A stretch of DNA of 64,000 nucleotides, from the NCBI GenBank assembly GCA_965197925.1, contig CBDAOC010000001.1:24724-88723 (forward strand), given 5' to 3'. Made by a program: the position numbers and the translations under genes. A model generated the notes under the pieces. That model worked only from the letters and a program-made list of their open reading frames with translations. It was not told the origin of the DNA and made no database searches. Below are positions 1 through 54,279 of this stretch, piece by piece. The stretch's first letter is position 1. Each line of letters opens with the position of its first letter. This DNA comes from Nitrososphaerales archaeon (GTDB lineage Archaea > Thermoproteota > Nitrososphaeria > Nitrososphaerales > UBA213).

Positions 1-255
1 TGATTTGGGTTGAAAATTATGTTTTACAATGTTATGCTTGAATTGGAAATGGTAAGGAATAATTTGAAAAGGAATTTTGGATTATAATTGCTATAGCTAC
101 AAAATCTATGAGTTAATATTGTAAGTTTTGATACCTAATTTTCACGTTTCGGATAAAATTCCTTCGAGTCACGATTCGCACAGTTACAAAAACCAATAGA
201 AGAATATTACCAACGAAATAATATCAATTTGTCAATACAAACTAAAAGGAATGGA

Positions 256-687: not shown

Positions 688-1802
688 ACGTCAACCTTGT
701 TGAAATTGTTCAAATAATATGCGCCCTTGATGCTGTTAGTAATTACGCTATCAACTTCTTTCTGATCAACAAGTGGAGTTAAACATGTACAGCAGTCACA
801 TAGCAACTGGCCTCCAGCATTCTCAATCTTTTGTGTGTATCCAAGATCTCTTGCACTTTCGTAAGCTGCCCTTGCGCAAAATATCAAGCATCTCTTCTTG
901 AATTTCTTTTCTTCAACCAAATTGGCCAGTAGAGATAGGTCTTCTACACCTAACTGGGGGCTGCCCAGAGTGATAATATCTCCACTCTCTTTGGTACTTA
1001 GCTCATCCTGCACATTCTTGGATTCTTCCTTTCCAAACTCTATTTTCTCACCATCAGTATTTCCTATAGAGAACATCCCACAGGATCCAGAAGTTCCTAT
1101 TGCAGCTGAAAGTGATTTTGCATTTTGCTTCTCCAATTGTTTGATGCTATCAAAGGCGACTACATTGTTCGCTACCTTACCAGCAAAATATCCCAGTAAA
1201 CCATAATCCAATTCGTTGTCAAGCTGACTTTTGATTTTTATACACTTGTCAGGTTTTCTCATCTCTTCAATTCGTAATTCTGAATAAGGTGCTTTACCAG
1301 TAAGTGCACTTGCAAGTGCGCTCAATGAACTCTCCTTGTTTGTTCGTAAATGTAGGATAGAGTTTGCGTAAATTACCGCATTACTTTCAGCAAAACTTAC
1401 ATTTGTTGCTTCAGGAGGGATTTGAAAAACTTCGTATGGGATACAAGTGTATGAATTCATTCCACCCATGAGCCTATACGCATCTACAATTTTGTTCTGT
1501 TCTGTAATGAACTTAGTGTTCACTTTCAATGAACTTATTTTAAGTGGATCGAAGCCCATAGGGTTTATTGTTGTCTTCACAGTAAATTTACAATCTCTAC
1601 TTAGGTTTTCAAGAAACTGCACACCAGAATCTCCAATCGTGTTATAATTCACACCAGAGACATGAGCCCAATTTACTGGGACGAGTTTTTCAGCATCAGT
1701 AGATTCACCTATTGCCAATAGTATTCTGTAAGCAGTGGCTAGTGCATCACCTTTTTCGCCATTAAGCGCTTTTTCTTCCTCTCTTGTTAACTGGATGAAC
1801 AC
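642..1802 (-). CDS. Aconitase X catalytic subunit (DUF521; phosphomevalonate dehydratase large subunit)
   Basis: Motifs AHVSGVNYNTIGD, YTCIPY, FAESNA, GSPQ, CDCCTCLTP and TNSIKGAYY; paired with DUF126. Confidence 0.88.
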   Translation of the reverse strand: MFIQLTREEEKALNGEKGDALATAYRILLAIGESTDAEKLVPVNWAHVSGVNYNTIGDSGVQFLENLSRDCKFTVKTTINPMGFDPLKISSLKVNTKFITEQNKIVDAYRLMGGMNSYTCIPYEVFQIPPEATNVSFAESNAVIYANSILHLRTNKESSLSALASALTGKAPYSELRIEEMRKPDKCIKIKSQLDNELDYGLLGYFAGKVANNVVAFDSIKQLEKQNAKSLSAAIGTSGSCGMFSIGNTDGEKIEFGKEESKNVQDELSTKESGDIITLGSPQLGVEDLSLLANLVEEKKFKKRCLIFCARAAYESARDLGYTQKIENAGGQLLCDCCTCLTPLVDQKEVDSVITNSIKGAYYLNNFNKVDVCLKPLKEIVRQECV

Positions 1803-1871
1803 ACTAACTGCATTCGCAATAATAAACTATTTCATACAAAGAATAATAATGATAATAACACCTTCCTCAGC

Positions 1872-2534
1872 ATGGATATACAAAAGGTTCTTGATTCGAT
1901 GCTTGAATCAATACGCAGATTAAAACCCCCAAGAATGACAGCTCTTAAAGAATTGCAGGAGACTGAAAATGGAGATCCGCTGCGGATACTAATGGGTACA
2001 ATACTATCTGCAAGAACTAGAGACGAAAATTCAACAATAGCCGTGAAGAATTTGTTTGCAAAATACAAAACAGTGGAAGAGATTGCTAATGCATCTACTA
2101 AAAAAATTGAACATCTGATCAAACCCTCTGGTTTCTATCATGTCAAGGCTAGAAGGATAAAGGAAGTGGCAAAGATCCTAATAGAACAGTATGATGGAAA
2201 TGTGCCTAATAATGTCTCTGAATTGCTAAAATTACCAGGAGTAGGAAGAAAGACTGCAAACTGTGTTCTGGTTTATGCATTTAACCAACCAGCCATACCG
2301 GTTGATACCCATGTGCATAGAATTGCCAATAGACTAGGATTGGTGCAAACCAAAACACCAGAAGAGACAGAAATAGAACTCACAAGTAAATTGGACAAAA
2401 AATACTGGATAAGAATCAATGACACGTTTGTTATGTTTGGACAGAATGTTTGCAAGCCGATAGGTCCGTTATGCGGGTCATGCCTTCTAAAAAATCAATG
2501 TAGGTATTACATGGAATTTATGTCCTCTTCTTGA
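1872..2534 (+). CDS. nth: Endonuclease III
   Basis: HhH motif LPGVGRKTAN, VDTHVHRI, and Fe-S motif CKPIGPLCGSCLLKNQC. Confidence 0.95.
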   Translation: MDIQKVLDSMLESIRRLKPPRMTALKELQETENGDPLRILMGTILSARTRDENSTIAVKNLFAKYKTVEEIANASTKKIEHLIKPSGFYHVKARRIKEVAKILIEQYDGNVPNNVSELLKLPGVGRKTANCVLVYAFNQPAIPVDTHVHRIANRLGLVQTKTPEETEIELTSKLDKKYWIRINDTFVMFGQNVCKPIGPLCGSCLLKNQCRYYMEFMSSS

Positions 2535-3192
2535 TAATCAGTAAAGTTAGGATTATGCCGGCAGTTACGACAGCCACTATAGGAGGAATCATCAGTATTG
2601 GGTTATCTAGGGGATTGCCTGACAAAACAGATAAAACTAATTCGCCCCCAAATGCGCTTACATCAGCATCAGAATCTTCTCTTCCATATAGCTCAACTGT
2701 ATCAAGAGTGAATGGACCTATTCGCAATCGATCCAAAACAATTCTCTGACCATTGTTTACGCTTAGCCTTTCATTCTGTACAAATGATGCAGATATTGAT
2801 TTGTCAGCGAACCACGCATGTGTATTTTCATACAGGCGCATGTAACCAACCTCTTCATTTGCAACAGCAATCCAGAGCCCATTAGAGGGGGGTGTGAGCA
2901 TCGCTATTTCTACAAAATTTGTATCTTCTGGATTTTCTTTTAGTCGTAGAACAATTTTCGCTTCTGGATTTTTTTCGTTATACTCCAAATTGTTTTGTAT
3001 ATTCAGTATCCAGTTAGCTAAGTGGTTGGTGGGAAATTCATAACGTTCAGGAGACAAAAACACCGCATTTGCTGCAGTGTATGGTATGGTAATAGTTTCA
3101 TATTTTCTCTTTTCTTGTTCTTGCGCATAAACCATATTTGTGATCATGGGTGACAATAAGATAATTATGATTACAAGAGCTAAGTTCTTCAT
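2518..3192 (-). CDS. Hypothetical exported, membrane-anchored protein
   Basis: N-terminal signal peptide and C-terminal TM helix followed by KKRT. Confidence 0.7.
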   Translation of the reverse strand: MKNLALVIIIILLSPMITNMVYAQEQEKRKYETITIPYTAANAVFLSPERYEFPTNHLANWILNIQNNLEYNEKNPEAKIVLRLKENPEDTNFVEIAMLTPPSNGLWIAVANEEVGYMRLYENTHAWFADKSISASFVQNERLSVNNGQRIVLDRLRIGPFTLDTVELYGREDSDADVSAFGGELVLSVLSGNPLDNPILMIPPIVAVVTAGIILTLLIIKKRT

Positions 3193-3223
3193 TTAATTAG
3201 CACCCAATATCATCAATAAAAAC

Positions 3224-5137
3224 CTAAGTTACAAATGGATTTTTCCAGTTCAATATCAATTCAGTAATCTCAGGTCGCATCAAGAGTTCAGATGGTCCTT
3301 CTCTACTGGTGACTATCTCTTTCAACTTCGTTCCACTCACCTCCAATCTATGCTGCGGATCATGTGGACAAGTATTTTCGCTAACAGTGCTCATACATAT
3401 CTTGCAATAAAAGAATGCTGGGAAGAAAACAGGTTTTATTTCAAGCTCTGGATAGTCCTTGAAAATCTCATGTGCTGCAAATGGATGGTAGTAGTTTCCA
3501 ACACCAGCATGGTCTCTACCTACAATGAAGTGAGAGCAACCATAGTTCTTGCAAACTATCGCTTGCAGAATGGCTTCCTTTGGGCCAGCATATCGTATTT
3601 CTGAGTGTAGTGTCGCAAACATCAAGCTTTCCTGTGGATAATAATTGCCTATCAGTGTTTCATATGCCTTTATTATCACTTCATCTTTGAAATCTCCGTC
3701 ATTCTTTCTTCCTATCAGTGGATTGATAAATAAACCATCGAATAGGTTTAGTGCAGCCTTCTGCAACATTTCATGTGCAAGGTGTGGTATGTTTCTTGTT
3801 TGAAAACCAACAACTGTTCTCCATCCACGTTTTCTAAATTCATCCCTTGTGTGTACTGGTGAAAATCTGTGGTTCCTAAGTTCACTGTTGATTGGCCTAT
3901 CTATTAAATCGATTTTGCCTCCGATTAACGTATCCTGCATTTTCATTATCCTATTGACGCCTGGATGTCCGATGTCATCTGTCTGACAAATTGCTTTGAC
4001 CATCTCCAGCTTGTTAAAATTGAAGAGTTCTTCAACATGCAATATTGCAAATATTCTGTCGAGTTCATCTCTTATAGCAACATCACCAGATTCCTTCATT
4101 TGTTTAGCAGTTTGCTCATCAGTGTCAAATACAATTGGAATAGTCCATGCTAGTCCATTTTCAAGCCTCCCTCGCTTTAGAACATTTGTAAAATCGTGAG
4201 CCAGCATGAATCCTTCTAACGGGCTAAAAATCCCATCCGCTATATTCTCTATATCGCTAACTCTATCCTCACCTACTCTTATGCTCATCAACTCATTTGC
4301 ATCATTGTATGCCTTTTCTCGAGAGTTTCCAGATAGAACTCTATTTACCAGCAGACCTCCATGAGGGGAAGGAATACCACTGCTCTCACTCAAAACAAAC
4401 AACTTTTTCTTAGCATGGGTGAAGTGCATTCCACATTCCTTATCGGCGTGTTGCTCCCACCACCATCTTCCTGCTCGCAGATCCTCTCCAGGTTTTACAG
4501 CCCTTGTACAACATTCACATCCTATACTCGGATATCCTTTGTCATTCAACTTATTATAAGGTACATTATTTTCCCTTAAGTAGTCCCACACCATATCCCA
4601 GGTCCAATCAGCAATTGGATTTACTTTTATGATGTTGCCTTGGCCTGAATCTATCTCAACTTTCTGGATGTCAGCTCTGGTTGATACTTGTTCTCTCATT
4701 AAACCAGTTAACCATGCATCCAGCTTGCTTAGGGCTCTGTTCAATGGATGGACTTTCCTAATTTCACAACACAATTTTCTGTTCTCAATGCTACGATAAA
4801 AGAGGTTTAGACCACGTGTCCTAACCATATTTTCAACCTCTTCTTGATCTGGAAAATAGATATTGATTGTGATACCGTATTTGTCACGTAGGGAATCCAT
4901 CAAATCGTATGTCTCTTGATTTAGTCGCCCAGTGTCTAAAGTAAAGATACCCGCATCTTTTCTTAACTTGGCTAGCATATCTATAATTACGAGATCACCT
5001 GGATTGAAACTGGAAGCCAATGCAATTCTTGGATGAAAGGTATCCAAAGCCCACTTTAGAACCTCTTGTGCGCTCTTGTTTTCCATACCATTAGAAATTT
5101 CCTGTACTTCTTCGGTGCTCATCTTAAGCATGCTCAT
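3224..5137 (-). CDS. cysH-sat: Fused APS/PAPS reductase (CysH) plus sulfate adenylyltransferase (Sat)
   Basis: N-half has LDTGRL, CCEIRKVHPL, GYPSIGCECCT and RAGRWWWE..KECGMH. C-half has PHGG, FSPLEGFM, QTRNIPHLAHE and HFIVGRDHAG. One open frame. Confidence 0.9.
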   Translation of the reverse strand: MSMLKMSTEEVQEISNGMENKSAQEVLKWALDTFHPRIALASSFNPGDLVIIDMLAKLRKDAGIFTLDTGRLNQETYDLMDSLRDKYGITINIYFPDQEEVENMVRTRGLNLFYRSIENRKLCCEIRKVHPLNRALSKLDAWLTGLMREQVSTRADIQKVEIDSGQGNIIKVNPIADWTWDMVWDYLRENNVPYNKLNDKGYPSIGCECCTRAVKPGEDLRAGRWWWEQHADKECGMHFTHAKKKLFVLSESSGIPSPHGGLLVNRVLSGNSREKAYNDANELMSIRVGEDRVSDIENIADGIFSPLEGFMLAHDFTNVLKRGRLENGLAWTIPIVFDTDEQTAKQMKESGDVAIRDELDRIFAILHVEELFNFNKLEMVKAICQTDDIGHPGVNRIMKMQDTLIGGKIDLIDRPINSELRNHRFSPVHTRDEFRKRGWRTVVGFQTRNIPHLAHEMLQKAALNLFDGLFINPLIGRKNDGDFKDEVIIKAYETLIGNYYPQESLMFATLHSEIRYAGPKEAILQAIVCKNYGCSHFIVGRDHAGVGNYYHPFAAHEIFKDYPELEIKPVFFPAFFYCKICMSTVSENTCPHDPQHRLEVSGTKLKEIVTSREGPSELLMRPEITELILNWKNPFVT

Positions 5138-5516
5138 TTCACATCCAGCCGGTCATCAACAATTTTGATAGAACTCTTCTTTCTGGCAGGTCAAACACTG
5201 CCATTGGATCCACGATAGTATTACTATAATAATCTCTACTGACCTTGTGGTCATATTGAAATACAACACTGTTGTAGTTATTTAAATCTTGCAGCCTTAT
5301 AGTTTTTTAATATTGTTTTTTATCCAATCTTTGTTAACCGAAGGGGATTGATTTATCTTAATCTATAAAACAATTATACTAATTTGAAGAGCCATAGGCA
5401 ACTACATTAGTAGATGTGATGTATGATCAGACTGATATGAAAAGTTTGATCATTATTGTTGAATGCAGTGCATGGATGTTGTAAGGTTTAAATAAGCTCC
5501 GCTATCCCAATCTGCG

Positions 5517-5846
5517 ATGGATATTGCAACCACGGTGAGAAATGTTCATGAAATAATCAAGGAAGATATTAGTGGAACATTTGATTCTTCTCTAGTCTTT
5601 AGAAAAGCTAAAGAAAGAGGGAATACGGAATTGACAGAATCGTTAACTCTACAATCTCTAGAATTTCTCCGGAAGATGCGTATAATCGAAGGAACCTCTG
5701 ATTCAGGAAAAGAGTTTAAAATTACTGACGTGGGACTTAATGTTCCATTAGAGCTCGTAGAAAAAAAATCTAAAGCTCTATATGGAAAGAAATATGTGCC
5801 AGGACAGCAGAGTTATACGCTCATAAGTTGCGGGTATTTCTTCTAA
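5517..5846 (+). CDS. Hypothetical protein, possible winged-helix fold
   Basis: 109-aa ORF preceded by TATA-like TTTAAATA; pattern LEFLRKMRIIE...FKITDVG. Confidence 0.5.
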   Translation: MDIATTVRNVHEIIKEDISGTFDSSLVFRKAKERGNTELTESLTLQSLEFLRKMRIIEGTSDSGKEFKITDVGLNVPLELVEKKSKALYGKKYVPGQQSYTLISCGYFF

Positions 5847-5852
5847 ATAGAT

Positions 5853-6937
5853 GAAGCATGGGCATTATTCCATATAACAAAAATAACTTGATGCCTCTGA
5901 TTGATTAACTTCCCAACATGTGCTTCAATGCCCTTAATGGTCTTCCTGTCAAGTAGTTGTAGTATACCATCAGCTGGTATAGCAATATAGAAATCAGAAC
6001 GATGCTCCTAGCTTTATCAAATCCTCTAACTGGCAATGGATCTATGGTAAATACATCCTTCATATGCTCTATCAATGGCTCAACGCTTATGCTCCTCCGA
6101 GAATATACATGCTGTCCAAATTCAGATTGATAGAACTGCAGCAATGCCAGTCTATTATCTGTAGTATGCCTATACCTTTCCAATGGGAATACTGGATGCC
6201 CTCTATACCTGCTGAAATCACATAACTTGTGATCATCATATCCTTCATCTCCTACAACATACCTCACCATTCCTAAAGGCAATGAAGATGTTATGCTTTC
6301 ATACATCTTGTTATCAGTAATGTTAGCTGTTGTGAAATCAGCTGATAATGGAACTATCAATGAACCTGTACTAGATGCTAGATGCAGTTTGTATCCGAAT
6401 ACCCGTCCCTTAGTTCTGCTGTAGCCCCATCGAGCATCTGTATCTATACCTGAACGTGGTACTTCATTCTTCATGTTTGATCTATGCCATACATGTCCCT
6501 TTGCTTTCAACAATGAACTGTCAACGGATACTATGGATGAGTCTACCAACCCATCTTTTATGAAGAGCACACCCATAACATCTATCCTTGATCTTATGTC
6601 AATTGATACGGCCTTGACCTTCTGTCGAATGTTCTTCTGTCTGGCAACCTATCAAGACCACATGCCTTCATTACCTTCCTGTTGTATGGCATGTCTATCA
6701 AAAAGTTTCATGCAAAGCATTGTTGCTTGGTATTCTTATCCATACTCTAACGATGAAGCATCTCACCATAACTGTAGGAGAATAGTAGAATGGTCTACTT
6801 TTCCTATTAGGTTTTGTCCGAATCACGTCAATCAAAAATAATATACGAAGAAGTATCGAGTCTGAGCTAAACACATTACCAATGAAAAATGGAACCTGAT
6901 CTTATCGTTTCGACCGGCTTAATTATGCCCAAGCCTC
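5853..6937 (-). mobile_element. IS type A copy 1 (DDE transposase, IS5/IS982-like; degenerate and chimeric)
   Basis: IRs GAAGCATGGGCATTATT and AATTATGCCCAAGCCTC; transposase fragment 5905-6576 with DTDARWG, GYKLH and GDEGYD. Confidence 0.9.
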
Positions 6938-6999
6938 AGGTAATTACTAATTATGATTCGTTGGATAATGCTTATGATCAATACGGGCGTTATTACGTT

Positions 7000-8085
7000 G
7001 TGACTCTGAAAGGGAAGAGGAACCATTACAACATCAAATTACTGAAAGGTTATGGAGTAAGCATAAGATTGAAAGAACATAGAGTAGTTTTGAATGATGG
7101 TAAAAATCCTTTCACAGAAGAACAGGAAAGAGAAGAATGGTTCGTTACAAAGCTTCCATACGAGAAGATAGTAATCTCAGGTAAGGGTTATGTTTCTACT
7201 GAGGCTATTAAATTATTAGCTAAGAAAAACATCAACGTTATTTTGACGGATACTTATGGAAATTTAATCTCAAATATGAATAATGTGATGTCAAGTAATA
7301 CTGCGACTAACTATAGGATAGGCCAGTATGATACATTTAGAGATCCTGATAAAAGATTGTATTTGCAAAAGCAACTTCTCTCTGCAAAGTTGCATAGTCA
7401 GATCGGATTTTTTAAATCGTTAGACAAAGAAGAACTTGAAAAAGCTATAGAACAATTAATAGATTATAAAGAATCAATTAATAGCTACAAAGATAGACGA
7501 AAGTTTCTTAGTATAGAATCAAGGTTTGGACACCTCTATTTTCGTAATTACTCCAAGTTGTTTCATTCCAAGTATGGATTCGATTCAAGGCACGGTGGGG
7601 GGTTGGTTATGTCTAATAGGTATGCATCAGATGTGATTAACGCACTTCTCAATTATGGGTACTCAGTATTAGCTGGAGAAATTGCCAAGTTTGTGAATGG
7701 TTTAGGATTAGACCCTTACTTTGGGTTTTATCATAAGATGCATACTTCCTTTCAAGCGTTGGTTTATGATTTGATTGAACCTTACCGTTGGATGGTGGAA
7801 TATTCTGTTTACAAGATGGCTGCTCCTACAAATCATGAACATCGCATAAAGAAAAGGGAATATGCATGGACTAGGGAAGGTAAGATAATTCTTGATACGA
7901 ATTTGATTAGAGGATTTTTGGAGTTGTTATCTCGGAAGTTAGATTCAGAGAGACCCTATTTATCAAAACATGGATTGAGGAGAGACGATGGTCTAGCAAT
8001 GTGTCAAGAGATTACTATTGCCAAGATTAACATACAGAATTTGGCTGAGTATTGTGTGGGGAAAAGAAATTACATTAATTTCTGA
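7000..8085 (+). CDS. cas1: Solo Cas1, casposase-like (thaumarchaeal type)
   Basis: GTG start at 7000; the longer ORF start at 6889 lies inside the IS. Cas1 motifs INALLNYGY, GLDPYFGFYH, LVYDLIEPYR and catalytic Glu in SIESR. No other cas gene nearby. Confidence 0.9.
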   Translation: MTLKGKRNHYNIKLLKGYGVSIRLKEHRVVLNDGKNPFTEEQEREEWFVTKLPYEKIVISGKGYVSTEAIKLLAKKNINVILTDTYGNLISNMNNVMSSNTATNYRIGQYDTFRDPDKRLYLQKQLLSAKLHSQIGFFKSLDKEELEKAIEQLIDYKESINSYKDRRKFLSIESRFGHLYFRNYSKLFHSKYGFDSRHGGGLVMSNRYASDVINALLNYGYSVLAGEIAKFVNGLGLDPYFGFYHKMHTSFQALVYDLIEPYRWMVEYSVYKMAAPTNHEHRIKKREYAWTREGKIILDTNLIRGFLELLSRKLDSERPYLSKHGLRRDDGLAMCQEITIAKINIQNLAEYCVGKRNYINF

Positions 8086-8512
8086 TAAGCATTAAGTGTC
8101 TTCTCTCATGCAATTGCAATATTTTATCTAACAACATACATCGCTAGGATTAATTAGGCATAGAATGTGACTGGTTCAAAGATGAGGGCAGAATACATTC
8201 AGAGTCTCTGGAATTTTTCCTAGATTCCTAGATTAGATTGAATAATTGAATCTAGTATGTTATAATAAATTGTTGTTCTATAATCAAGTCTTGAGGCATA
8301 TATGTGGATAGATCGTACACCTTTTGCAATTGCAACGGCAGTATAAATAGAATTGACATTTCGCACCCAAGATGTCCGTGTCGGAAATACAAGTAAATTC
8401 CGTGAGTGAACTATGAAATTCATCCTTACTCTACTCTTAGATACAATATTCCTTAACCAAGTCATTATAATATTATCGGTTAGCTAAGAATTGAAGGTTC
8501 TTTTTCTACTAT

Positions 8513-9393
8513 GAAGTCATCCCAATACTCTCCAATACATCATAATCGACGAAATGATAACAAATGCCAGATAGTTTTGTGCATTCTTCTCATATCTGAT
8601 CCTGGTTCTGTGGAACCCATTCTTCAACCAGGCAAAGAATCTCTCCACAACATAGCGCGTCTTGCCGTATAGGTATTGTTCTGTATCATCATTTTGTTGT
8701 TGTGTCTTACTGTTTTTTCTGTAAGGTATGCAGTCAGAGATTTTTCTTTTGGTGAGGTATTTCCTGATGAATTCTGCATCATAGCCCTTGTCTGCTTGGC
8801 ACCGCGCAATTTTTCTGATAGATCTCTCATCCAGATATTGTGAGATGCCATCCATCACGTCTACAAATCTTGCAGAGTCATGCTGATTTGCAGGACATTA
8901 CTACTGAGACTGGCAGTCCGTTTTGTTCCACCGCAACGTGTATTTTTGTGCCTGAAATCCTGTTGAATCCGTTGTATCCTATGACGCTTCCCCTTTTTTG
9001 GCCGGAACTGATGACGAATCGACTGATATTTTTTGCAGCTGCATCTTGCCTGATCTGTGGGCTGATTTGACTGCAGCGGAGAGGATATTCTTCCATATTC
9101 CACGTCGCTGCCAGTTCTGCAGTCTGCGGTGCGCAGTTGATTTGGAGCCGTACCTTTGTGACATCCCAGTCCACCTGCATCCTGTTATCCCGACAAACAG
9201 GATTCCGTTGACTGTCTTTCTGTCGTCTGCCCTTGGCCTTCCGGTTCTGGCTGGCTTGGGGAGATGCGGTGATATCATCTTCCATTGTTCATCTGTTATC
9301 TCCTGAAATTTCATGATCTGCTACGGGCAGCATTGCAAATAGATCCAAATGATCGTCAATTATTCACTAAATGATCAGTTTTGGGATCAGTTG
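8513..9393 (-). mobile_element. IS5-family element (two-ORF, frameshift type; damaged)
   Basis: ORFs 8979-9314 (GRPR, TGCRW, KKG slip site) and 8517-8858 (ADKGYD, RYVVERFFAWL); imperfect IRs related to IS type B. Confidence 0.88.
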
Positions 9394-9623
9394 AATCTAA
9401 AAAAGGTATATTTTAGAGGTTTCTCTTCCCCGTAGTTGAGCCTATACTCCATCATTTTTGTTTATCTAGTTTATTCCATTTCTTATTTTTTCAGTTCATC
9501 TTCACTATTTTTAGGGGAAACTTAAACAGCATAAACGGAACAACCTAGTAAGTTTTTGCATCATCTTCAAATTCAATATTCAAACTCAAGGAACAAAGGA
9601 TAATAATATCAATTGCGCATCTA

Positions 9624-10247
9624 GTGGTATTGAGATTCGGTAATAAACCCCAATGGATAATGATTCTTATTTCAGCTGCTTTCATGGGAGTGGGTTTGAC
9701 TATAATCTTATTTTCTAGCCAGAATCTTTCTAGTGGTCCATTAACGAGTCCCGTACCCTCTCCGGGATATGAGAGGAATCTATCATATACAGAAGTAGGA
9801 TTTCTTGGTAGGTTAATGTTCGCCATGGGGGTTTTACTGGCATTCATAAGTATAGGAATAAGAAAATGGTCTAGATACCAAGTTAGAGAAAAAAATATAG
9901 ACGGTGTAAAGGCCGTTGGTATATCCGTTGCAACTACGAACTACGATAAGGACAGAGGTGTAATACATAAAGTGATGCAAAGCGCAGAACTTGTAGCAAA
10001 CGCGAAAAACGAATTCGCTATGGATGAGCCAGAGTACAGGATGGGTTGGTATTTCTTCGTTTTACACGTAACTCCAAACATTATGGGAAGAGTTATTGAA
10101 CAAATAAGCACAAGACAAACAATGCAGAATATAAAGTTAGAAGATAGGTTTATCAAATGGCTTTCAAGTCAATTAGAAGAAAAAAAATGCGATGTATATC
10201 TTGATCTGGAATCACGGAAGGGTTCATCAAAGTATGGTCTCTTTTAG
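9624..10247 (+). CDS. Hypothetical membrane protein with two TM helices
   Basis: 207-aa ORF with two hydrophobic segments. Confidence 0.65.
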   Translation: MVLRFGNKPQWIMILISAAFMGVGLTIILFSSQNLSSGPLTSPVPSPGYERNLSYTEVGFLGRLMFAMGVLLAFISIGIRKWSRYQVREKNIDGVKAVGISVATTNYDKDRGVIHKVMQSAELVANAKNEFAMDEPEYRMGWYFFVLHVTPNIMGRVIEQISTRQTMQNIKLEDRFIKWLSSQLEEKKCDVYLDLESRKGSSKYGLF

Positions 10248-11196
10248 AGCACTTAACAATACCAAAATTTACTAAAATGTTTAGATGAATTATACGATGC
10301 GATTTTTTGAGTGTTTACTTTTCCTGCCTTATGCTTAGTGAGTTTTTGAATCCTCCCCGAACTCAAGAAATAGAAATGATAACATCACCTGTGTATGTAT
10401 TCATATCGAAATTTGCTATCAAACCTAGATGTCTAATGGTACTTACCACAATCAAGTGGAATTCTGGTTAAATGTCACAATTTCCTATCTTCCTTCTTCC
10501 AATGTTCACAGTATTATCATTTGTCTAGACTAAAATCTTACCATCACAGGCAGAAACAGAATTTTCAAAGTATTATAGGTCTATCCTTGATTTAAGAACT
10601 CTTCTAAGGTCTACCTTTTGATTTCTTAGAATATTCACAATAACCGCCATCCAAACTATACACATTTTAAGCCCTGATTACTAAATTGTTCCGCAGTCTC
10701 TAAACTATAATTTCTGTGATAACAGTATATCAAAGGGCTCTTCAACATATGTTTTTTTTGGAATTCCTCCAATGATATCTTGAGTTAAATGTATCGAATC
10801 AGGGATGTAAGAAGCCAGATACGATTTCTTATCCCGATATCAGCAATTGTAACCTTACCGCTCCCTAATTTTTTGCTTCCAAGACAGAGATATGTTTGAA
10901 GGTCGCTTTTTCACTTTTCACTATAATTCAGTCATCATGGATTCCAAATTAAGTTTACGAGTGCATCTATATCAAAGAGTTGCAGGCATTATCTTTTGTT
11001 AAGATCAAGCTTATTCCAACGAATCATAATGTGAAATATAATCTAAAAAACGATACAAAAACACTCCTAGGAAGGCAGGATTCTCTTTTTACTGATAAAG
11101 AATAGTAACAAGTCTGACATGAATTATTAGGAAAATTATAACAAATATTGAAAGTAGAAAAACAATATATGTAATACAATATTTATTTTAATTACG

Positions 11197-12387
11197 ATGA
11201 AACTAGAAATACCAAGGTTTACTGAAAGGTTTGGTGCGGTGAGTTTGAATTCTGTGCAGAAAGTTTATGAAATAGATTCAGGAGCTAAGCAGGAAGTATA
11301 TCAACCGCCACAAACGATCAGGAAAGTAGAGACAGACGAAGTAGAAAACATGGAGAGTAAAATGGCAATAGTGATACCAATAAAAAATGAAAAACTCAAG
11401 ATATTTGAAGGTGTGTTAAGCGGTATACCACACGATTGCTTTAATATTATAGTATCCAACAGTGATCGCGAATCTCTGGACAAGTACAAAATGGAGAGGA
11501 ATTGTGTTGAACAGTTCAATAAATTTGTTGGACGTGATTCTATAATAATTCATCAAAAAGATCCTGAGCTAGGAGAGATATTGAAGAAATTGGGATATAC
11601 AGATATGCTAGACGATGGGGCCATTAGAGATGGGAAGGGAGAATCGATGATTCTTGGTATGTTGTTGGCTAAAATGGTAGGGAAGGAGTATGTAGGATTT
11701 GTGGATGCAGATAATTATGTTCCGGGGGCAGTTAATGAATATGTGAAAATTTTTGCATCAAGCTTCGTTATGGCAAGCACACCTTACGTGATGTCCAGAA
11801 TTTCTTGGGTTTACAAGCCAAAAGTATCACAAGGAGGGTTTTCTTTTCCTATGAGGGGCAGAATATCAGAGTACACAAATAGTCACCTAAATTCTTTGAT
11901 ATCCCATCACACAGGGTTTGAAACCGATATCTGCAAGACAGGCAATTCTGGGGAACATGCAATGAGTATAAAGCTCGCAGAACTTCTCACATATACATCA
12001 GGATTTGCTATTGAGCCCTACGAAATAATGAATGTATTAGAGGAGTTTGGAGGATTGAATTCTGGCAGCAAGAATGAAGCACTTGATAAAGGCGTTGATG
12101 TCTTCCAAGTGCAAACTAGAAACCCACATTTTCATGAAGAAAAAGGAGAGGACCACCTGCAGGAAATGTTACTTTGTTCTTTGGCTTCAATCTATCATAG
12201 TAGGATATGTCCCAAACCATTAAGAGAAAAAATACTAGTAGAGCTTAGGAGTAATACTCAATTGAGCGAGGGTGATGAACCACCACTACTACATAAGATA
12301 AAACCGTTCAATTTTATCGATATTGATGTATTCGAAAAAATGTTAAGAGAAAAGTCCTCGACCTTGGAACAGTTTCGCTCATTATAG
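11197..12387 (+). CDS. mpgS: Mannosyl-3-phosphoglycerate synthase
   Basis: Motifs LEIPRFTERFG, GVLSGIPHDC, RDGKGE, GFVDADNYVPG, GNSGEHAM and TRNPHFHE. Confidence 0.92.
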   Translation: MKLEIPRFTERFGAVSLNSVQKVYEIDSGAKQEVYQPPQTIRKVETDEVENMESKMAIVIPIKNEKLKIFEGVLSGIPHDCFNIIVSNSDRESLDKYKMERNCVEQFNKFVGRDSIIIHQKDPELGEILKKLGYTDMLDDGAIRDGKGESMILGMLLAKMVGKEYVGFVDADNYVPGAVNEYVKIFASSFVMASTPYVMSRISWVYKPKVSQGGFSFPMRGRISEYTNSHLNSLISHHTGFETDICKTGNSGEHAMSIKLAELLTYTSGFAIEPYEIMNVLEEFGGLNSGSKNEALDKGVDVFQVQTRNPHFHEEKGEDHLQEMLLCSLASIYHSRICPKPLREKILVELRSNTQLSEGDEPPLLHKIKPFNFIDIDVFEKMLREKSSTLEQFRSL

Positions 12388-12392
12388 TTATC

Positions 12393-13034
12393 TTGAAAAA
12401 AAAACTTGCAGCATTTGATATGGATGGTACGTTGATCAACGGTAGGTTAGTTTTTGCTTTGGGGGACAAGTATGACTTTTCAGACAGAATTAGGGAAATA
12501 ATGGTCACGAATATAGAAGGACACAAAAAATCAAAAGAAATAGCAAAATTATGGAAGGGTGTAAAGGCTAGTGAGGTTACAGAAGCTGTAAGAGGCATAC
12601 CCATCATGGATGGGGCTTCTGAAATAATTGGAGAACTCAGAGAACTTGGTTATGTGATTGGTGTAATAAGCGATAGTTACACACTTGCTACTGAACACAT
12701 TGTAAAAAGATTCAATATGGATTTTAATGTCGCTAATGCATTAGAGGTGAAAGATGGTAAGCTTACAGGTGAAATAAATATGCCTTTAGGATGGGAACAA
12801 ATCAACTGCTGGTGCAAAATCTCTGTATGCAAGAGATTCCATCTTGAAAGACTGATTGGTTCCATGAATATCCCTTTGAAGGATACAATAGCTATTGGCG
12901 ATACTAGAAATGATCTTTGCATGATCGAGAGAGCTGGTAAAGGAATTGCATTCAATCCCAAGGATGAGAAGATAATGCAGAACAAAATAGTAGTAAATGG
13001 TCAAGATCTCCGGAAAATAATGAAATTTGTCTAA
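12393..13034 (+). CDS. HAD phosphatase, SerB-like
   Basis: Motifs FDMDGTL and GDTRNDLCM; starts 5 nt after mpgS. Confidence 0.85.
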   Translation: MKKKLAAFDMDGTLINGRLVFALGDKYDFSDRIREIMVTNIEGHKKSKEIAKLWKGVKASEVTEAVRGIPIMDGASEIIGELRELGYVIGVISDSYTLATEHIVKRFNMDFNVANALEVKDGKLTGEINMPLGWEQINCWCKISVCKRFHLERLIGSMNIPLKDTIAIGDTRNDLCMIERAGKGIAFNPKDEKIMQNKIVVNGQDLRKIMKFV

Positions 13035-13175
13035 TATTTTTTCCTACATTTTTTATCATTTTGATCAAAAAAACTTATAAAAGTTAGGTTCGAAGAATAT
13101 TATGATAGAAGTTGAAAGGTTCTGAACCGTTGAAAGGTTTCTCACCAATTAAATTCTACTGAAGTGAGAGCGATA

Positions 13176-14840
13176 ATGTGTGGTATATCAGGAGTACTGA
13201 GTAAGTCAGGGAAGAATGTTACACCGTATGTCATGGATATGCTATCATGCATGATTAACAGGGGTCCTGATGGTGCAGGAATAATAGTTAAGAATTCAAT
13301 GGCGCATTCGTATAAATTGTCAGATCTTGGACTGAATCAGTTCAATAGTGAAATAGCTCTGGGCCATACTAGACTGGCCATAGTCGGTGGCAATTGTGGG
13401 CTGCAGCCTTTCAGAAGTTGCAATGGGAAGATATTACTTGAGCACAATGGTGAGATCTATAATTACAAAAAATTAAGAGCAGAGTTAGAGCAGTCGCATC
13501 ATTTCATAACCAATACCGACAGTGAAGTGCTCGTGCATCTTATTGAAGAATATTACAAAGGAGATCTGCTCAAAGCAGTGAAGAGGGCAATGAGGAGGTT
13601 GGATGGTGTATACGCAATAGCAGTAAAGGATGAGGATAGCGTAGTGATATTTAGGGATAAGCTTGGAATAAGACAGCTTTACTATGGGGAAAATGATGAA
13701 TGTATAGCATTTGCATCAGAAAAAAAGGCATTATGGATGATCGGTGTGAAGAATATTCGCAGGGTTATGCCTGGGTTCGCGGTACGATTCTCCTCTGGAA
13801 AGACGAAGATCGAGAAAGTTCTTGAACCACCAGTTAATCCAAGGGGAAGGAAAGTAAATGGAATGAAATCAGCAATTAAAATGTATAAAAAGGCTCTATA
13901 TAGTTCAGTTAAGAAAAGGGTAGAGGATCTGGAGAAGGTTGGAATTATATTCTCAGGTGGAATAGACAGTGTTCTCATAGCGAAGGTAGCAAAGGATCTT
14001 GGTGTCCCTGAGCTGTGCTGTTATACAGCTGGTCAAGTAGACTCGCATGATTTGAAGTATGCCAATGAAGTGGCAGAAAAATTAGGATTGAATATAAAAT
14101 CAAAAACACTTACCGTGGATTACATTGAATCAGTACTTCCTAGAATAATTGATGTAATCGAGGATACAAATGCCGGGCAGGTTGAAGTTGCAATACCAGT
14201 TTATGCGGCAGTTGAGCTCGCCCATAAAGATGGATTCAAAGTCATGCTTAGTGGTCAAGGCGCTGATGAATTGTTTGGTGGATATCCTTGGTATAGTAAG
14301 ATAGTTGGGTCAAAAGGATATGATGAATTTCATAAATGCATGTTGAAGGATCTTCTATACTTATACAAGGAATCATTTGAGCGTGAAGACAAGATTACAA
14401 TGGCTCACAGCATAGAGTCAAGAATTCCATTTCTGGATCCACAAGTCATAAGGGTTGCAATGCGTATAGATCCAAAACTCAAGATATTTGACGGAGATGA
14501 TATTTTTGGCAAGCAGGTGCATAGACTACTTGCAGAAGAGATAGGAATACCAAGAAACATATCATTTAGACCCAAAGAAGCTGCACAACATGGTTCAGGA
14601 ATACATGAAGTAATAAACAATATTGCAAAAACAAAGGGTTTCACTCAAGAACTAGTTAGAAAACTTGATTATCAATCCGTATTGAATAGGAAGGAAAAAA
14701 TTGGGAGCTCTCAAAGATACGGTTATCTATTTGGTGATGAAGATTTATGGGTAGCAGAAGATCATGTGCAGATGTATCTTGATAATTTGGCTCGCAAACA
14801 CGGATTGGTAGAAAGCGAAAATGCACACAGATTGATTTAA
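13176..14840 (+). CDS. asnB: Asparagine synthase (glutamine-hydrolysing) family amidotransferase
   Basis: MCGI start at 13176; RGPDG, HNGEIYNY, SGGIDS and SGQGADELFGGY. Confidence 0.92.
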   Translation: MCGISGVLSKSGKNVTPYVMDMLSCMINRGPDGAGIIVKNSMAHSYKLSDLGLNQFNSEIALGHTRLAIVGGNCGLQPFRSCNGKILLEHNGEIYNYKKLRAELEQSHHFITNTDSEVLVHLIEEYYKGDLLKAVKRAMRRLDGVYAIAVKDEDSVVIFRDKLGIRQLYYGENDECIAFASEKKALWMIGVKNIRRVMPGFAVRFSSGKTKIEKVLEPPVNPRGRKVNGMKSAIKMYKKALYSSVKKRVEDLEKVGIIFSGGIDSVLIAKVAKDLGVPELCCYTAGQVDSHDLKYANEVAEKLGLNIKSKTLTVDYIESVLPRIIDVIEDTNAGQVEVAIPVYAAVELAHKDGFKVMLSGQGADELFGGYPWYSKIVGSKGYDEFHKCMLKDLLYLYKESFEREDKITMAHSIESRIPFLDPQVIRVAMRIDPKLKIFDGDDIFGKQVHRLLAEEIGIPRNISFRPKEAAQHGSGIHEVINNIAKTKGFTQELVRKLDYQSVLNRKEKIGSSQRYGYLFGDEDLWVAEDHVQMYLDNLARKHGLVESENAHRLI

Positions 14841-14936
14841 TTTTTAACTATATCTTCTCTCATCATGTTGTAAAATCAATAAATTCAAAAAATAAATGGT
14901 GAAAGATTTAATTCCTTCAATGTAGATAATGAGTGT

Positions 14937-16466: not shown

Positions 16467-16508
16467 ATCATAATCAACCTCTCGACTGTTGGTAAAAAGT
16501 ATTTGTGC

Positions 16509-50915: not shown

Positions 50916-53136
50916 ATGCCGCGTTACAAGTCAACTCAAGAAGCATTAAAGGTCATAGGCAATAAAGACCAAATTCGAATGGAGTGGGGTTGACTCCTTA
51001 CACCCGAATAATATTGGTACTATAGCCCATGTAGATCACGGAAAAACTACCATGAGCGATAGCTTATTGGCTGCCACTGGCATGATAAGTCCCTCCGTGG
51101 CTGGGCAGGCATTGGCATTAGATTTCATGGAATTAGAACAAACAAGACAGATGACTATCAATGCAGCTAACGTTACTTTGTATTACGAGGAGGATGGTAA
51201 GGCCTATGTTATGAATATGATCGATACACCAGGGCATATTGACTTTACCGGAAGGGTAACCAGAAGTTTAAGGGCCATCGATGGTGCCATAGTTGTCTGT
51301 GACTCTGTGGAAGGAGTTATGACCCAGACAGAAACCGTTACCAGACAGGCGCTTGAAGAGAGAGTAAAACCCGTTCTGTACATCAACAAGATAGATCGGT
51401 TGGTCAAGGAATTGAGGTTAACGCCTCCTAAGATGCAGGAATGGTTGGCGGGAATAATTGGTGATTTTAACAGACTGATCGACATTTATGCCGAACCTGA
51501 GCTGAAGGAGAAATGGAAGGTTAGTATACAGAATGATAGTGTAGCATTTGGTTCCGCTAAAGATAGGTGGGGTTTCAATGCTGGTATGGCAGCAAAAAGA
51601 GGAATTAACTTTAACACTATTTTTGACGCTTATACCTCGGGAGAACCCAAAGAATTAGGCAAAAAGGCTCCCTTACATGAAGCAGTGTTGAGTATGGTTG
51701 TTAAACATCTCCCCCCTCCACACGTTGCTCAGAAATACAGAATACCCAAAATATGGAAAGGTGATCTTACCTCTGATATTGGCAAGGCTCTTCTAGAGTG
51801 TGATGATAATGGTCCCGCTATAATGATGATCACTACCATGGTGGTTGATCCTCAGGCAGGGCCGGTAGCAGTGGGTAGATTGTTTTCAGGTACATTAAAG
51901 GATGGTAATGAAATTCATCTCATAGATTCAAAGAGAAAGGAAAGAATTCAATCCGTTAACTTGTTTATGGGTGCTACCAGAGAGATTGTTGGTTCACTTG
52001 GTGCTGGTAACATACCTGCATTGCTTGGATTAGAACATGCGAGAGCTGGAGAAACCATAGGTTCTACACAAAACATTTATCCATTTGAATCGATCAAGTA
52101 CGTTTCTGAAGCTGTCATCACAGTTGCTGTGGAACCAAAACATCCAAAGGATTTACCCAAACTAGTTGAAACATTGAGAAAGATGAGTATAGAGGATCCC
52201 AACTTAGTGGTGAAGATCAATGAAGAAACTGGCGAGACTCTAATGGCTGGTATGGGAGTATTACACTTGGAAATAGCTACCTCGTTACTAGAGCAAGCTG
52301 GCCTGGAGATTACTACTTCCCCACCGTTGATCAATTATAGAGAAACAGTAAGAGCAGCTGCAGGGCCAATAATGTCAAAGTCACCGAACAGGCATAACAA
52401 GTTGTTTGTTAAAGTGGAACCCTTGAGTGAAGACGTGATAGAGTTGATAAGAACTGGAAAGATAAACGAAAACATGGACAAGAAAGATATAGGCGCGGTT
52501 TTGCGGGAGAAGGGCTGGGAAACAGACGAAGCCAGAAGGGTAGTAGCTATAGAGAGCGGGAGTCTACTCGTTGATGCAACCAAGGGTGTTCAATACTTGC
52601 AGGAATCTATGGACTCGATAAAATCCGGTTTCACCGACATCATGCTCACTGGTCCGATGGCCCAAGAACATTGTAGAGGAATAAAGATTATTTTACATCA
52701 CTTCGTCCCACATGAAGATCCGGCGCATAGAACTCTTGCACAGCTTATGCCCGCAAGTAGAAGGGCTGTCATGGGCTCGATACTTGTAGCAGATCCGGTT
52801 TTGCTGGAGCCAGTACTTGGTATTGAAATAAAATGTCCTGCGGATATGATTGGAACAGTTGCTGGTATATTATCCGGGAAGCGTGGTAAGTTGATTAACG
52901 TTGATCAGAGAGGTATAATAGCAATTGTAACGGGTGAAGTACCAGCATCCGAAACTTTTGATTTGTCAGAGACTATGCGAGGAGGTACTGCTGGCAAAGC
53001 GATTTGGAATACTCACTTTAAGCTATGGCAAGCTGTGCCATCCTCGCTTCTTAAATCAATAATAACAGACATTAGGAAGAGGAAGGGTTTGAGCCCAGAG
53101 CCTCCAAGCCCTGATGAATTTATTGATAAAGAATAA
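50916..53136 (+). CDS. fusA: Translation elongation factor aEF-2, join(50916..50979,51011..53136)
   Basis: MPRYKSTQEALKVIGNKDQIR joined to NIGTIAHVDHGKTT; also DTPGH, NKID and diphthamide loop HEDPAHR. Confidence 0.96.
50980..51010 (+). other. Putative 31-nt bulge-helix-bulge intron in aEF-2 mRNA
   Basis: 4-bp helix UUCG/CGAA with 3-nt bulges AAU and UAA; removal restores the frame. Confidence 0.88.
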
Positions 53137-53188
53137 AAAGTGATTCCCCCCCTCCTAGGCACGGATTTGTGTCGCTGACTAGGTAATT

Positions 53189-54279
53189 GAGACTTGGGCA
53201 TAATTCAATTATAATATTATTTTGAAATTATTACTATTAGCTTCCCAACATATACTTCAATGCCCTAAGAGGCCTTCCTGTCAAGTAGTTGTAGTACACC
53301 ATTACCTGATACAACAATACTGATAACAACACTATACTCCTTACCTTATCAAATCCTCTAACTGGCAATGGATCTATGGTAAATACATCCTTCATATGCT
53401 CTACCAATGGCTCAACGCTTATGCTCCTCCGAGAATATACATGCTGTCCAAATTCAGATTGATAGAACTGCAGCAATGCCAGTCTATTATTATCTGTAGT
53501 ATGCTTGTACCTTTCCAATGGGAATACTGGATGCCCTCTATACCTGCTGAAATCACATAACTTGTGATCATCATATCCTTCATCTCCTACAACATACTTT
53601 ACCATTCCTGTAGGCAATGAAGATGTTATGCTTTCATACATCTTGTTATCAGTAATGTTAGCTGTTGTGAAATCAGCTGATAATGGAACTATCAACGAAC
53701 TTGTGCTACATGCTAGATGTAGTTTGTATCCGAATATCCATCCCTTGGTTCTGCTGAATCCCCATCGAGCATCTGTATCTATACCGGAGCGTGGCACTTC
53801 GTTCTTCTTCATGCTAGATTTGTGCCATACATGTCCCTTTGCTTTCAACAATGAACTGTCAACGGATACTATGGCTGGGTCTACCAACCCATCTTTTATG
53901 AAGAGCATACCCATAACATCTATCCTTGATCTTATGTCAATTGATACGGCCTTGACCTTCTGTCGAATGTTCTTCTGTCTGGCAACCTATTAAGACCACA
54001 TGCCTTCATTACCTTCCTGTTGTATGGCATGTCTATCGAATAGTATTCATGCAAAGCATTGTTGCTTGGTATTCTTATCCATACTCTAACGATGAAGCAT
54101 CTCACCATAACTGTAGGAGAATAGTAGAATGGTCTACCTCTTTTCCTATTAGGTTTTGACCAAGGAATCACGTCAATCAAAAATAATATACGAAGAAGTA
54201 TGGAGTCTGAGCTAAACATATCAACAATAAAAACTAGAACCTGATCTTATCGTTTCGAACTAAATTACGCCCAAGCCTC
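53189..54279 (-). mobile_element. IS type A copy 5 (1091 bp)
   Basis: Same IRs; ORFs 53932-54219 and 53237-53914. Confidence 0.93.

What the first reader, a model, noticed from the sequence alone, without database searches (positions are those of the whole stretch)
6938..8085. Solo casposase-like cas1 can be re-joined to the 3' end of aEF-2 through a swapped IS target duplication
Seen: the 8 bp right of IS-A copy 1 (6938-6945, AGGTAATT) equal the 8 bp left of the same-orientation IS-A copy 5 (53181-53188), and neither copy matches its own other flank. Removing the IS and joining the two flanks places the cas1 GTG 106 nt downstream of the aEF-2 stop, co-oriented. Established: thaumarchaeal family-1 casposons encode a Cas1-like integrase near one end and insert at the 3' end of the aEF-2 gene. 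Inference: this is a casposon end at aEF-2 that was split and moved about 46 kb by IS recombination. The cas1 frame and catalytic E/H/E motifs remain intact, and no polB is visible in the window.
Basis: partly seen in the sequence, partly recalled or inferred. Interest (0 to 1): 0.8.

Follow-up and report, generated by a model that had tools for sequence, protein, structure and literature searches.

The report
IS-split casposon remnant at aEF-2
The lone cas1 gene is the integrase of a decayed self-replicating transposon (a casposon) that once sat directly behind the elongation factor aEF-2 gene and was later cut apart by insertion sequences; this is a known kind of element in an unusually scrambled state.

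Summary
AGGTAATT lies right of IS-A copy 1 (6938-6945) and left of copy 5 (53181-53188), and neither copy matches its own other flank.

The 8-mer alone is weak evidence. This IS targets A-N-N-T-A-N-N-T, only 17 of 62 full copies keep their duplication, and a third end in the genome carries the same 8-mer.

Independent evidence supports the join:
- One uninterrupted right terminal inverted repeat (TIR, 11003-11090) aligns first with the aEF-2-side flank and then, abutting it, with the cas1-side flank.
- A 13-bp copy of the aEF-2 end (11091-11103, 12/13) follows that repeat. Next come the genes that lie directly behind aEF-2 in three family relatives.
- Two uninterrupted paralogous left ends in this genome run from TIR to cas1 start across the same 8-mer site.
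- A relative's MAG holds a complete 17-kb element: aEF-2, TIR, cas1, protein-primed PolB, TIR and duplication.
- Nine of 28 orthologous cas1 loci follow aEF-2. Four have gaps of 111-123 nt; the rejoined window gives 110.

What remains is about 3.3 kb of casposon DNA without PolB, also interrupted by a second IS.

Verdict: a new, decayed member of the family-1 casposons. The route of the 46-kb displacement is unresolved.

The parts
50917..53136 (+). aEF-2 gene, the casposon target. Its 3' end carries the leader TTT (53119-53121) and the left target-site duplication ATTGATAAAGAAT (53122-53134). The stop codon TAA is made of the last T of the duplication plus the first AA of the casposon.
   Evidence: Pfam EF-G/EF-2 domains. 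71% identity to SAW134 aEF-2. The target is 12/13 identical to the experimentally defined Ca. N. koreensis duplication ATTGATAAAGAGT with its TTT leader (PMC8464041, passages read). The 5' end carries a 31-nt insert.
53135..53188 (+). Outer half of the casposon left terminal inverted repeat, ending in the 8-mer AGGTAATT (53181-53188) that IS-A duplicated.
   Evidence: nhmmer TIR profile hit at E 1.9e-10. Window 53120-53187 (leader, duplication and this half) aligns with the right end at 11102-11038, 45/65 identical; 0 of 500 shuffles reach the score. 46/55 and 52/58 identical to the uninterrupted paralogs C20:766355 and C18:191720.
53189..54279 (+). IS-A copy 5 (IS5 family, transposase on the - strand). 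Flanks are AGGTAATT and AATTAAAT.
5853..6937 (+). IS-A copy 1 (same orientation, 92% identical to copy 5, different left-terminal subfamily). Flanks are AAATAGAT and AGGTAATT (6938-6945).
6946..6979 (+). Inner half of the left terminal inverted repeat and the leader before cas1.
   Evidence: Window 6943-6979 aligns with 11037-11003 of the right end, 31/34 identical; 0 of 500 shuffles reach the score. It is colinear with paralog positions 76-176, 76/97 identical.
7000..8085 (+). cas1 (casposase), 361 aa from GTG 7000, intact. E173, H245 and E260 are present and there is no added HTH domain. An in-frame ATG at 6889 inside IS-A would give a 398-aa fusion ORF.
   Evidence: Pfam PF01867 at E 8.8e-48. 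The best solved relative is 6opm at 1.3e-34; that this chain is the M. mazei casposase is recalled. 69% identity to the Cas1 of the complete SAW134 casposon. Tree.
8086..8512 (.). Casposon interior of unknown content, with no Pfam match.
8513..9393 (-). IS-B (IS5 family, DUF4096 plus DDE) inside the remnant. Its 3-bp flanks TAT and AAT differ.
   Evidence: 14 of 38 IS-B copies keep identical 3-bp flanks.
9394..11002 (.). Casposon right part. It holds an ORF at 9624-10247 (207 aa) with no family match.
11003..11090 (-). Right terminal inverted repeat, uninterrupted. It is the inverted partner of 53135-53188 plus 6946-6979.
11091..11103 (+). Right target-site duplication ACTGATAAAGAAT, 12/13 identical to 53122-53134.
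11155..13034 (+). Mannosyl-3-phosphoglycerate synthase and a HAD phosphatase. These are the ancestral downstream neighbours of aEF-2.
   Evidence: Pfam PF09488 at E 1.1e-150 and HAD families. In G002, G003 and G006 the 1.5 kb after the aEF-2 stop maps here, with 81-84% amino-acid identity over the first gene.

Best explanation
The cas1 at 7000-8085 is the casposase of a family-1-type casposon that integrated at the 3' end of aEF-2.

The target was a TTT leader plus the 13-bp site ATTGATAAAGAAT, which was duplicated on integration.

An IS5-family element (IS-A, 8-bp duplication) then inserted into the left TIR at AGGTAATT. Later homologous recombination among the more than 100 IS-A copies separated aEF-2 plus the outer TIR half (now at 53 kb) from the rest of the element.

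The rest (6946-11090) still carries its right TIR and duplication. It is still attached to aEF-2's ancestral downstream genes.

The remnant is about 3.3 kb of casposon DNA. It holds an intact casposase, no protein-primed PolB and a second IS (IS-B), so it cannot replicate itself and probably cannot move.

Shown: the flank identity, the split TIR, the duplication, the synteny and the orthology to a complete casposon.

Inferred: the order of events, that recombination rather than misassembly caused the separation, and whether the casposase is still active.
For: 1. The uninterrupted right end, read inward from 11103, aligns with the aEF-2-side flank 53120-53187 over 11102-11038 (45/65). It then aligns directly with the cas1-side flank 6943-6979 over 11037-11003 (31/34). 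For each half, 0 of 500 shuffles reach the score.
2. The duplication at 11091-11103 matches 53122-53134 at 12/13.
3. Behind aEF-2 in 7 family relatives tested: 3 show the genes at window 11155-12600, 3 show the gene at 14859-16271, and 1 (G008) shows a TIR plus cas1 relic.
4. On the uninterrupted paralog C20:766355, the aEF-2-side flank maps to positions 26-83 and the cas1-side flank to 76-176. The overlap is exactly the 8-mer site.
5. SAW134 MAG: aEF-2 (71% identity), then 52-nt TIRs (92% identical to each other), cas1 (69%), a 628-aa protein-primed PolB, and the 13-bp duplication ATCGATAAAGAAT at both junctions, about 17 kb in all.
6. In 9 of 28 order loci, cas1 follows aEF-2 co-oriented. 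Four have gaps of 111, 116, 121 and 123; the rejoined window gives 110.
7. In the tree, the window Cas1 lies in a 34-row clade. The genome's CRISPR Cas1-Cas2 fusion (next to Cas4) sits on a branch of about 10 changes per column.
8. The target matches the experimentally defined Ca. N. koreensis site and the published aEF-2 targeting of family 1.
Against: - There is no PolB in the remnant. A defining gene of a casposon is therefore absent at this locus.
- The 8-mer is not unique: C18:151964 carries it too.
- Today's order (cas1 side to the left of aEF-2, same orientation) cannot arise from one exchange between copies 1 and 5. Their other flanks (AAATAGAT, AATTAAAT) do not pair, and no third copy closes a cycle.
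- Short-read contigs of four public runs could not span either IS, so the assembly at these repeats is unverified.
- The last 7 kb of the contig is a perfect inverted copy of 42103-49134, which raises doubt about assembly near aEF-2.
- The tree holds no named family-2 casposases and no wide set of CRISPR Cas1.
Confidence: 0.88

Rival explanations
1. The casposon reading is right, but the 46-kb separation is an assembly error at IS-A repeats. In the real chromosome, aEF-2, TIR, one IS-A and cas1 are contiguous.
For: - The contig ends in a 7-kb, 100% inverted copy of 42103-49134, bounded by IS-A copies.
- Only 17 of 62 IS-A copies and 14 of 38 IS-B copies keep matching flanks.
- Public contigs break at the IS.
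Against: - Copies 1 and 5 are only 92% identical and have different left-terminal subfamilies, so they are not one copy assembled twice.
- A 2.9-Mb genome with more than 200 IS copies in 20 contigs implies long reads that span 1.1-kb repeats. This is an inference.
Confidence: 0.09
2. The 8-mer match is coincidence. The TIR half at aEF-2 and the cas1-bearing piece come from two different casposon copies (for example a tandem pair), each hit by IS-A at the same preferred site.
For: - The genome holds nine nhmmer TIR-profile matches at E up to 0.04 (the weakest at 0.036), plus a degenerate tenth end seen by eye, of two sequence types.
- Tandem family-1 casposons at ef-2 are published.
- IS-A has a strong target preference.
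Against: - The right end attached to the cas1 piece carries the aEF-2 duplication and abuts aEF-2's ancestral neighbours.
- Both halves fit adjacent stretches of that one right TIR.
- This reading needs two insertions at the same site plus two losses.
Confidence: 0.03
3. The gene is a stray CRISPR adaptation Cas1 and not a casposase.
For: Sources that name the homologs call them 'CRISPR-associated endonuclease Cas1'.
Against: - No array in window 1-20000.
- The only Cas2 in the genome is fused to a different Cas1 on C20, next to Cas4.
- TIRs, the duplication and the aEF-2 context all fit a casposon.
- Orthologs lie in PolB-bearing elements.
Confidence: 0.01

Closest known systems
Family 1 casposons of Nitrosopumilus (NitAR1-C1, NitAR2-C1, NitSJ-C1; Krupovic 2014, PMC4046053, passages read; Ca. 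N. koreensis casposase biochemistry, PMC8464041, passages read)
   Same: - Compact Cas1 without an HTH domain.
- Insertion at the 3'-distal end of aEF-2 without destroying the gene.
- TTT leader and a 13-bp duplication that differs by one base from the experimentally defined one.
- TIRs present.
- Orthologs travel with a protein-primed PolB.
   Different: - This copy has lost PolB and is about 3.3 kb.
- Its left TIR is split by an IS, and the two parts lie 46 kb apart.
- Cas1 is only about 50% identical to the orthologs in the genus-g30 genomes (1.6-1.9 Mb). That these are Nitrosopumilus is my guess. It is nearer to those of family f15.
Thaumarchaeal casposons of Krupovic 2019 (PMC6563490, passages read): NitNF5-C1/C2 tandem at ef-2, NitDev and NitEve-C1 at other sites
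   Same: - ef-2 is the commonest target.
- Several casposons per genome, tandem junctions and IS insertions in integrated elements are all described.
- P0086 from Ca. Nitrososphaera evergladensis SR1 falls in the same 13-row clade as the window Cas1.
   Different: - The passages I read describe no element cut apart and scattered by IS recombination.
- This genome holds nine profile-matched termini, mostly away from aEF-2.
CRISPR Cas1-Cas2 adaptation module
   Same: Same protein fold family and the same catalytic E/H/E positions.
   Different: No Cas2, no array and no other cas genes at this locus. The genome's true module is on C20 and is very distant in sequence.

Membership tests
Family 1 casposon | Cas1-family integrase not linked to CRISPR or cas2 | tested here: met
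   PF01867 at E 8.8e-48. No tandem array in window 1-20000. The only Cas2 in the genome is on C20.
Family 1 casposon | [quoted passage not shown] | tested here: not met
   PF03175 matches lie only at C18:187517-188211 (broken); a weak match in a replicative PolB lies on C20. None is in the window. The orthologous complete SAW134 element does carry one. This locus is therefore a remnant, not a complete member.
Family 1 casposon | Terminal inverted repeats | tested here: met
   The left repeat (53135-53188 plus 6946-6979) pairs with the right repeat (11003-11090). The full alignments, which also take in the duplication and leader, are 45/65 and 31/34 identical; 0 of 500 shuffles reach either score.
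Family 1 casposon | Target-site duplication flanking the TIRs | tested here: met
   53122-53134 and 11091-11103 are 12/13 identical, and each is preceded by TTT.
Family 1 casposon | Insertion at the 3' end of aEF-2 | tested here: met
   The left junction is at the aEF-2 stop. The right junction abuts aEF-2's downstream genes of 3 relatives. 9 of 28 orthologous loci follow aEF-2.
Family 1 casposon | Cas1 groups with family 1 casposases rather than CRISPR Cas1 | tested here: inconclusive
   The window Cas1 lies in a 34-row clade in which 10 rows are aEF-2-adjacent, far from the genome's own CRISPR Cas1. No named family-1, family-2 or wide CRISPR references were in the tree. 6opm (recalled to be the M. 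mazei casposase) outscores the best CRISPR Cas1 chain, 1.3e-34 against 9.7e-27.
CRISPR-Cas adaptation module | Cas1 beside Cas2 and a repeat array | tested here: not met

The most novel reading that the evidence does not exclude
The 3.3-kb PolB-less element with an intact, conserved casposase is not just debris. It would be either a non-autonomous mini-casposon or a retained solo casposase.

An 89%-identical full-length homolog exists on a 2.4-Mb contig of another assembly.

The nine TIR-profile matches, most away from aEF-2, would then record real off-target integrations by this enzyme rather than IS scattering. They include one inverted-TIR / 13-nt spacer / direct-TIR junction on C18, and ends directly next to mini CRISPR arrays.
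Probability: 0.12. Interest if true: 0.65.

Novelty: new member of a known kind. Interest (0 to 1): 0.4.

Why it matters
This locus adds a well-documented case of how a casposon dies. An IS insertion in a TIR, IS-driven rearrangement and loss of the polymerase have all occurred, while the casposase reading frame survives.

It also shows that swapped IS duplications in an IS-laden genome need independent support before they are used to rebuild ancestral junctions. Here an internal control was available: the intact right TIR and the conserved neighbours.

The basic biology (a family-1 casposon at aEF-2) is already published, so specialists would not be surprised.

Tried and rejected
1. Joining cas1 to the broken PolB on C18 through IS-B. 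Window 8086-8509 has no PolB-like frame, SAW134 PolB finds nothing on C1, and the 3-bp IS-B flanks do not pair. Rejected.

2. C18:151964 as the true partner of the cas1 flank. That end cuts a HYR/PKD surface-protein ORF, and the cas1 flank has an in-frame TAA, so it does not continue that ORF. Rejected, but it shows that chance 8-mer matches occur.

3. C19:284932 (an exact 16-nt copy of the aEF-2 end) as the ancestral right junction. tblastx found no similarity to the relatives' flanks. Left unexplained.

4. A three-copy cycle of IS-A flanks. None found. The 7/8 matches of copy 2's flanks to copy 1's left flank and copy 5's right flank are within chance.

5. Public runs.
   - All four laid runs are short contigs that stop in the IS.
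   - The 1626-nt (1624-nt in one run) contig at 6914-8539 has only 24 letters inside IS-A, below the 31 needed to count as bridging.
   - No IS-free allele was seen.
   - A joint from 8069 to 5844 in three runs is explained by a 64-nt paralog of the cas1 3' end at C20:1014948-1015011.

6. dN/dS. Synonymous sites are saturated (pS 0.73-0.92). The only finite value is 0.08, against SAW134. It says nothing about recent constraint.

7. Earlier findings for this genome: none.

Full report
**The observation**

The window holds six copies or part-copies of a 1.1-kb IS5-family element, IS-A. It encodes DDE_Tnp_1 and DUF772 domains. Aligning the copies fixes its ends and shows an 8-bp flank duplication.

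- Copy 1 (5853-6937) is flanked by AAATAGAT and AGGTAATT.
- Copy 5 (53189-54279), in the same orientation, is flanked by AGGTAATT and AATTAAAT.

**How much the 8-mer is worth**

The window lies in a 2.9-Mb genome of 20 contigs. That genome carries 229 IS-A ends.

- The flanks follow A-N-N-T-A-N-N-T. A, T, A and T are found at positions 1, 4, 5 and 8 in 201, 206, 209 and 198 of 229 ends.
- Only 17 of 62 paired full copies keep identical flanks.
- Among 66 orphan left and 89 orphan right ends there are 86 exact cross matches, against about 72 expected from a position-weight model.
- 55 of 89 orphan right ends have at least one exact partner.
- AGGTAATT is rarer (probability 0.006, 0.40 expected among the orphan left ends), yet a third end carries it, at C18:151964.

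That third end interrupts a HYR/PKD surface-protein ORF, and the cas1 flank does not continue this ORF. It is therefore a chance match.

**Independent proof inside the window**

A search for copies of the aEF-2 end found TTT + ACTGATAAAGAAT at 11088-11103. I read the sequence to its left inward, as the right end of an element.

- The aEF-2-side flank (53120-53187) aligns with 11102-11038, 45/65 identical.
- The cas1-side flank (6943-6979) aligns with the directly adjoining 11037-11003, 31/34 identical.
- 0 of 500 shuffles reach either score.

One uninterrupted right TIR therefore matches a left TIR that is now in two pieces, broken within the AGGTAATT word. The duplications at 53122-53134 and 11091-11103 agree at 12 of 13 positions.

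**Synteny**

I took the 1.5 kb after the aEF-2 stop in seven genomes of the same family. An eighth locus ended at its contig edge and was left out.

- In G002, G003 and G006 this stretch maps to window 11155-12600. These genes are a mannosyl-3-phosphoglycerate synthase and a HAD phosphatase.
- In G001, G005 and G007 it maps to window 14859-16271.
- In G008 it holds a TIR-like stretch and a cas1 relic that starts 78 nt after the stop.

The DNA to the right of the remnant is thus aEF-2's ancestral downstream neighbourhood. The SIS-domain gene upstream of aEF-2 is also conserved with SAW134.

**Paralogs and relatives**

An nhmmer profile of the TIRs finds nine termini in this genome at E up to 0.04. 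Two of them, C20:766355 and C18:191720, run uninterrupted from the TIR through an AGATTAAT / AATTAAT site into the leader and the cas1 start. On C20:766355 the two window flanks map to positions 26-83 and 76-176, overlapping by exactly the 8-mer site.

A Nitrosopumilaceae MAG (SAW134) carries the complete element. In order it holds:
- aEF-2;
- the junction GAATTT|ATCGATAAAGAAT|AAAAATAGAATCCCCC...;
- cas1 (69% identity to the window's);
- HEPN, STAND-NTPase and helicase genes;
- a 628-aa protein-primed PolB;
- an inverted 52-nt TIR and the same 13-mer again.

The whole element is about 17 kb.

In a sample of 401 genomes of the order, 28 (G000 included) have an ortholog at E up to 1e-60. Of the 28 loci returned, 9 have the aEF-2 3' end co-oriented within 1.5 kb upstream. 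The gaps are 111, 116, 121 and 123 nt in four of them, and the rejoined window gives 110. The other 19 loci show no aEF-2 within 1.5 kb.

**Which kind of Cas1**

- The protein is compact: 361 aa, with the Cas1 domain over residues 18-309 and no further Pfam domain.
- Its best solved relative is 6opm at 1.3e-34, ahead of CRISPR Cas1 4n06 at 9.7e-27. That 6opm is the M. mazei casposase is recalled.
- The genome's real adaptation module is a Cas1-Cas2 fusion next to Cas4 on C20.
- In a 35-row tree that fusion sits on a branch of about 10 changes per column. The window protein lies in a starred 13-row clade that includes three aEF-2-adjacent orthologs and the Ca. Nitrososphaera evergladensis SR1 protein.
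- The tree lacks named family-2 and broad CRISPR references, so I rate this one membership feature as inconclusive.

Published passages confirm three points. Family 1 is defined by a protein-primed PolB and a compact Cas1. ef-2 is the commonest thaumarchaeal target. The Ca. N. koreensis casposase needs a TTT leader and the 13-bp site ATTGATAAAGAGT.

**What is left, and what is missing**

Without the two IS, the element is about 3.3 kb: a split left TIR, cas1, 427 nt of unknown sequence, about 1.6 kb with one 207-aa ORF of no known family, and the right TIR.

There is no PolB in the window. The only protein-primed PolB of the genome is on C18. It is broken by a frameshift, a TGA codon and an IS-B insertion. 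Further small fragments lie on C20.

IS-B (8513-9393) has unequal 3-bp flanks, as do 24 of 38 IS-B copies. The middle of the element may therefore have been lost by IS-B recombination. I could not show this, and the attempt to join cas1 to the C18 PolB failed.

Synonymous sites between cas1 and its orthologs are saturated. Long-term constraint is evident (pN 0.15-0.23 against pS 0.73-0.92), but recent constraint is unknown.

**The rearrangement**

Today the cas1 side lies to the left of aEF-2, in the same orientation. One exchange between two direct IS copies cannot produce this order. The outer flanks of copies 1 and 5 do not pair, and no third copy closes a cycle. Several events are needed, for example excision as a circle and re-entry at another IS, or serial inversions.

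Misassembly is the alternative. The contig ends in a perfect 7-kb inverted copy of 42103-49134 bounded by IS-A. The four public runs that hold cas1 are short contigs that cannot span the IS. Copies 1 and 5 differ by 8% and in their left-end subfamily, which speaks against a simple collapse.

**Verdict**

The locus is a decayed, IS-dismembered member of the family-1 casposons at aEF-2: a new member of a known kind, of moderate interest.

Noticed in passing
window 50917-51050 (aEF-2 5' end); loci L067-L071, L073, L074: The first 21 codons of aEF-2 (MPRYKSTQEALKVIGNKDQIR, ATG 50917) are out of frame with the rest. A 31-nt insert (about 50980-51010) lies between them.

A 30-31-nt insert sits at the same place in 8 of 8 genomes of the family that I examined. 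SAW134 lacks it.

RNAalifold gives an outer helix, a 4-bp helix UUCG/CGAA, a 3-nt bulge and a 4-nt bulge on opposite strands, and an inner hairpin whose sequence differs among the genomes, apparently with compensating changes (by eye, not counted). This is a bulge-helix-bulge motif, so the insert is a candidate mRNA intron in an essential gene.

One literature search listed no paper on it by title or abstract.
   Followed up: partly
window 42103-49134 and 56945-64000: A perfect (100%) 7-kb inverted repeat runs to the end of the contig. Inverted IS-A part-copies bound the 7.8-kb aEF-2 segment between the arms. This is either an invertible segment or an assembly artefact.
   Followed up: no
L010 (G000:C18:176000-195999) 11143-19016: A cluster of casposon debris:
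- broken protein-primed PolB;
- two direct type-1 TIRs;
- an inverted type-2 TIR separated from a direct type-1 TIR by exactly 13 nt;
- a perfect 307-bp inverted repeat holding a ribbon-helix-helix gene;
- a 21-nt copy of the aEF-2 end followed by a type-2 TIR and a DUF5615 gene, as at the SAW134 right end.
   Followed up: partly
L010 17209-17815 (C18:193215-193814) and C20:871625-873720: A 31-codon 5' fragment of casposase-like cas1, with a degenerate TIR upstream, lies about 55 nt from a mini array of three CRISPR-like 29-36-nt repeats (spacings 370 and 66). Four copies of the same repeat (successive spacings 1961, 66 and 68) lie on C20, with an IS-B in the 1961-nt gap.
   Followed up: partly
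G000:C19:284917-284932 (- strand) and C18:194256-194276: Two further copies of the aEF-2 3' end (16/16 and 15/16 over the searched word). They share about 50 nt of upstream sequence that resembles a truncated inverted type-2 TIR. The C19 copy is followed by DNA with no match to the relatives' aEF-2 flanks.
   Followed up: partly
whole genome G000: The IS load is extreme: 229 IS-A ends and 38 full IS-B copies (99-100% alike). Most copies lack matching flank duplications (17 of 62 and 14 of 38 keep them). This implies pervasive IS-mediated rearrangement.
   Followed up: partly
G008 (SAT137 MAG) loci L026-L029: At least four cas1 copies at 69-72% identity, most of them at contig ends. The C43 copy lies downstream of an aspartyl-tRNA synthetase gene, among genes full of NUMOD3-like repeats. 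Its Cas1 has an N-terminal extension with the same repeat.
   Followed up: no
window 6889-7000: The right end of IS-A copy 1 supplies an in-frame ATG (6889), which gives a 398-aa IS-cas1 fusion ORF. Outward transcription from the IS into cas1 is possible.
   Followed up: no
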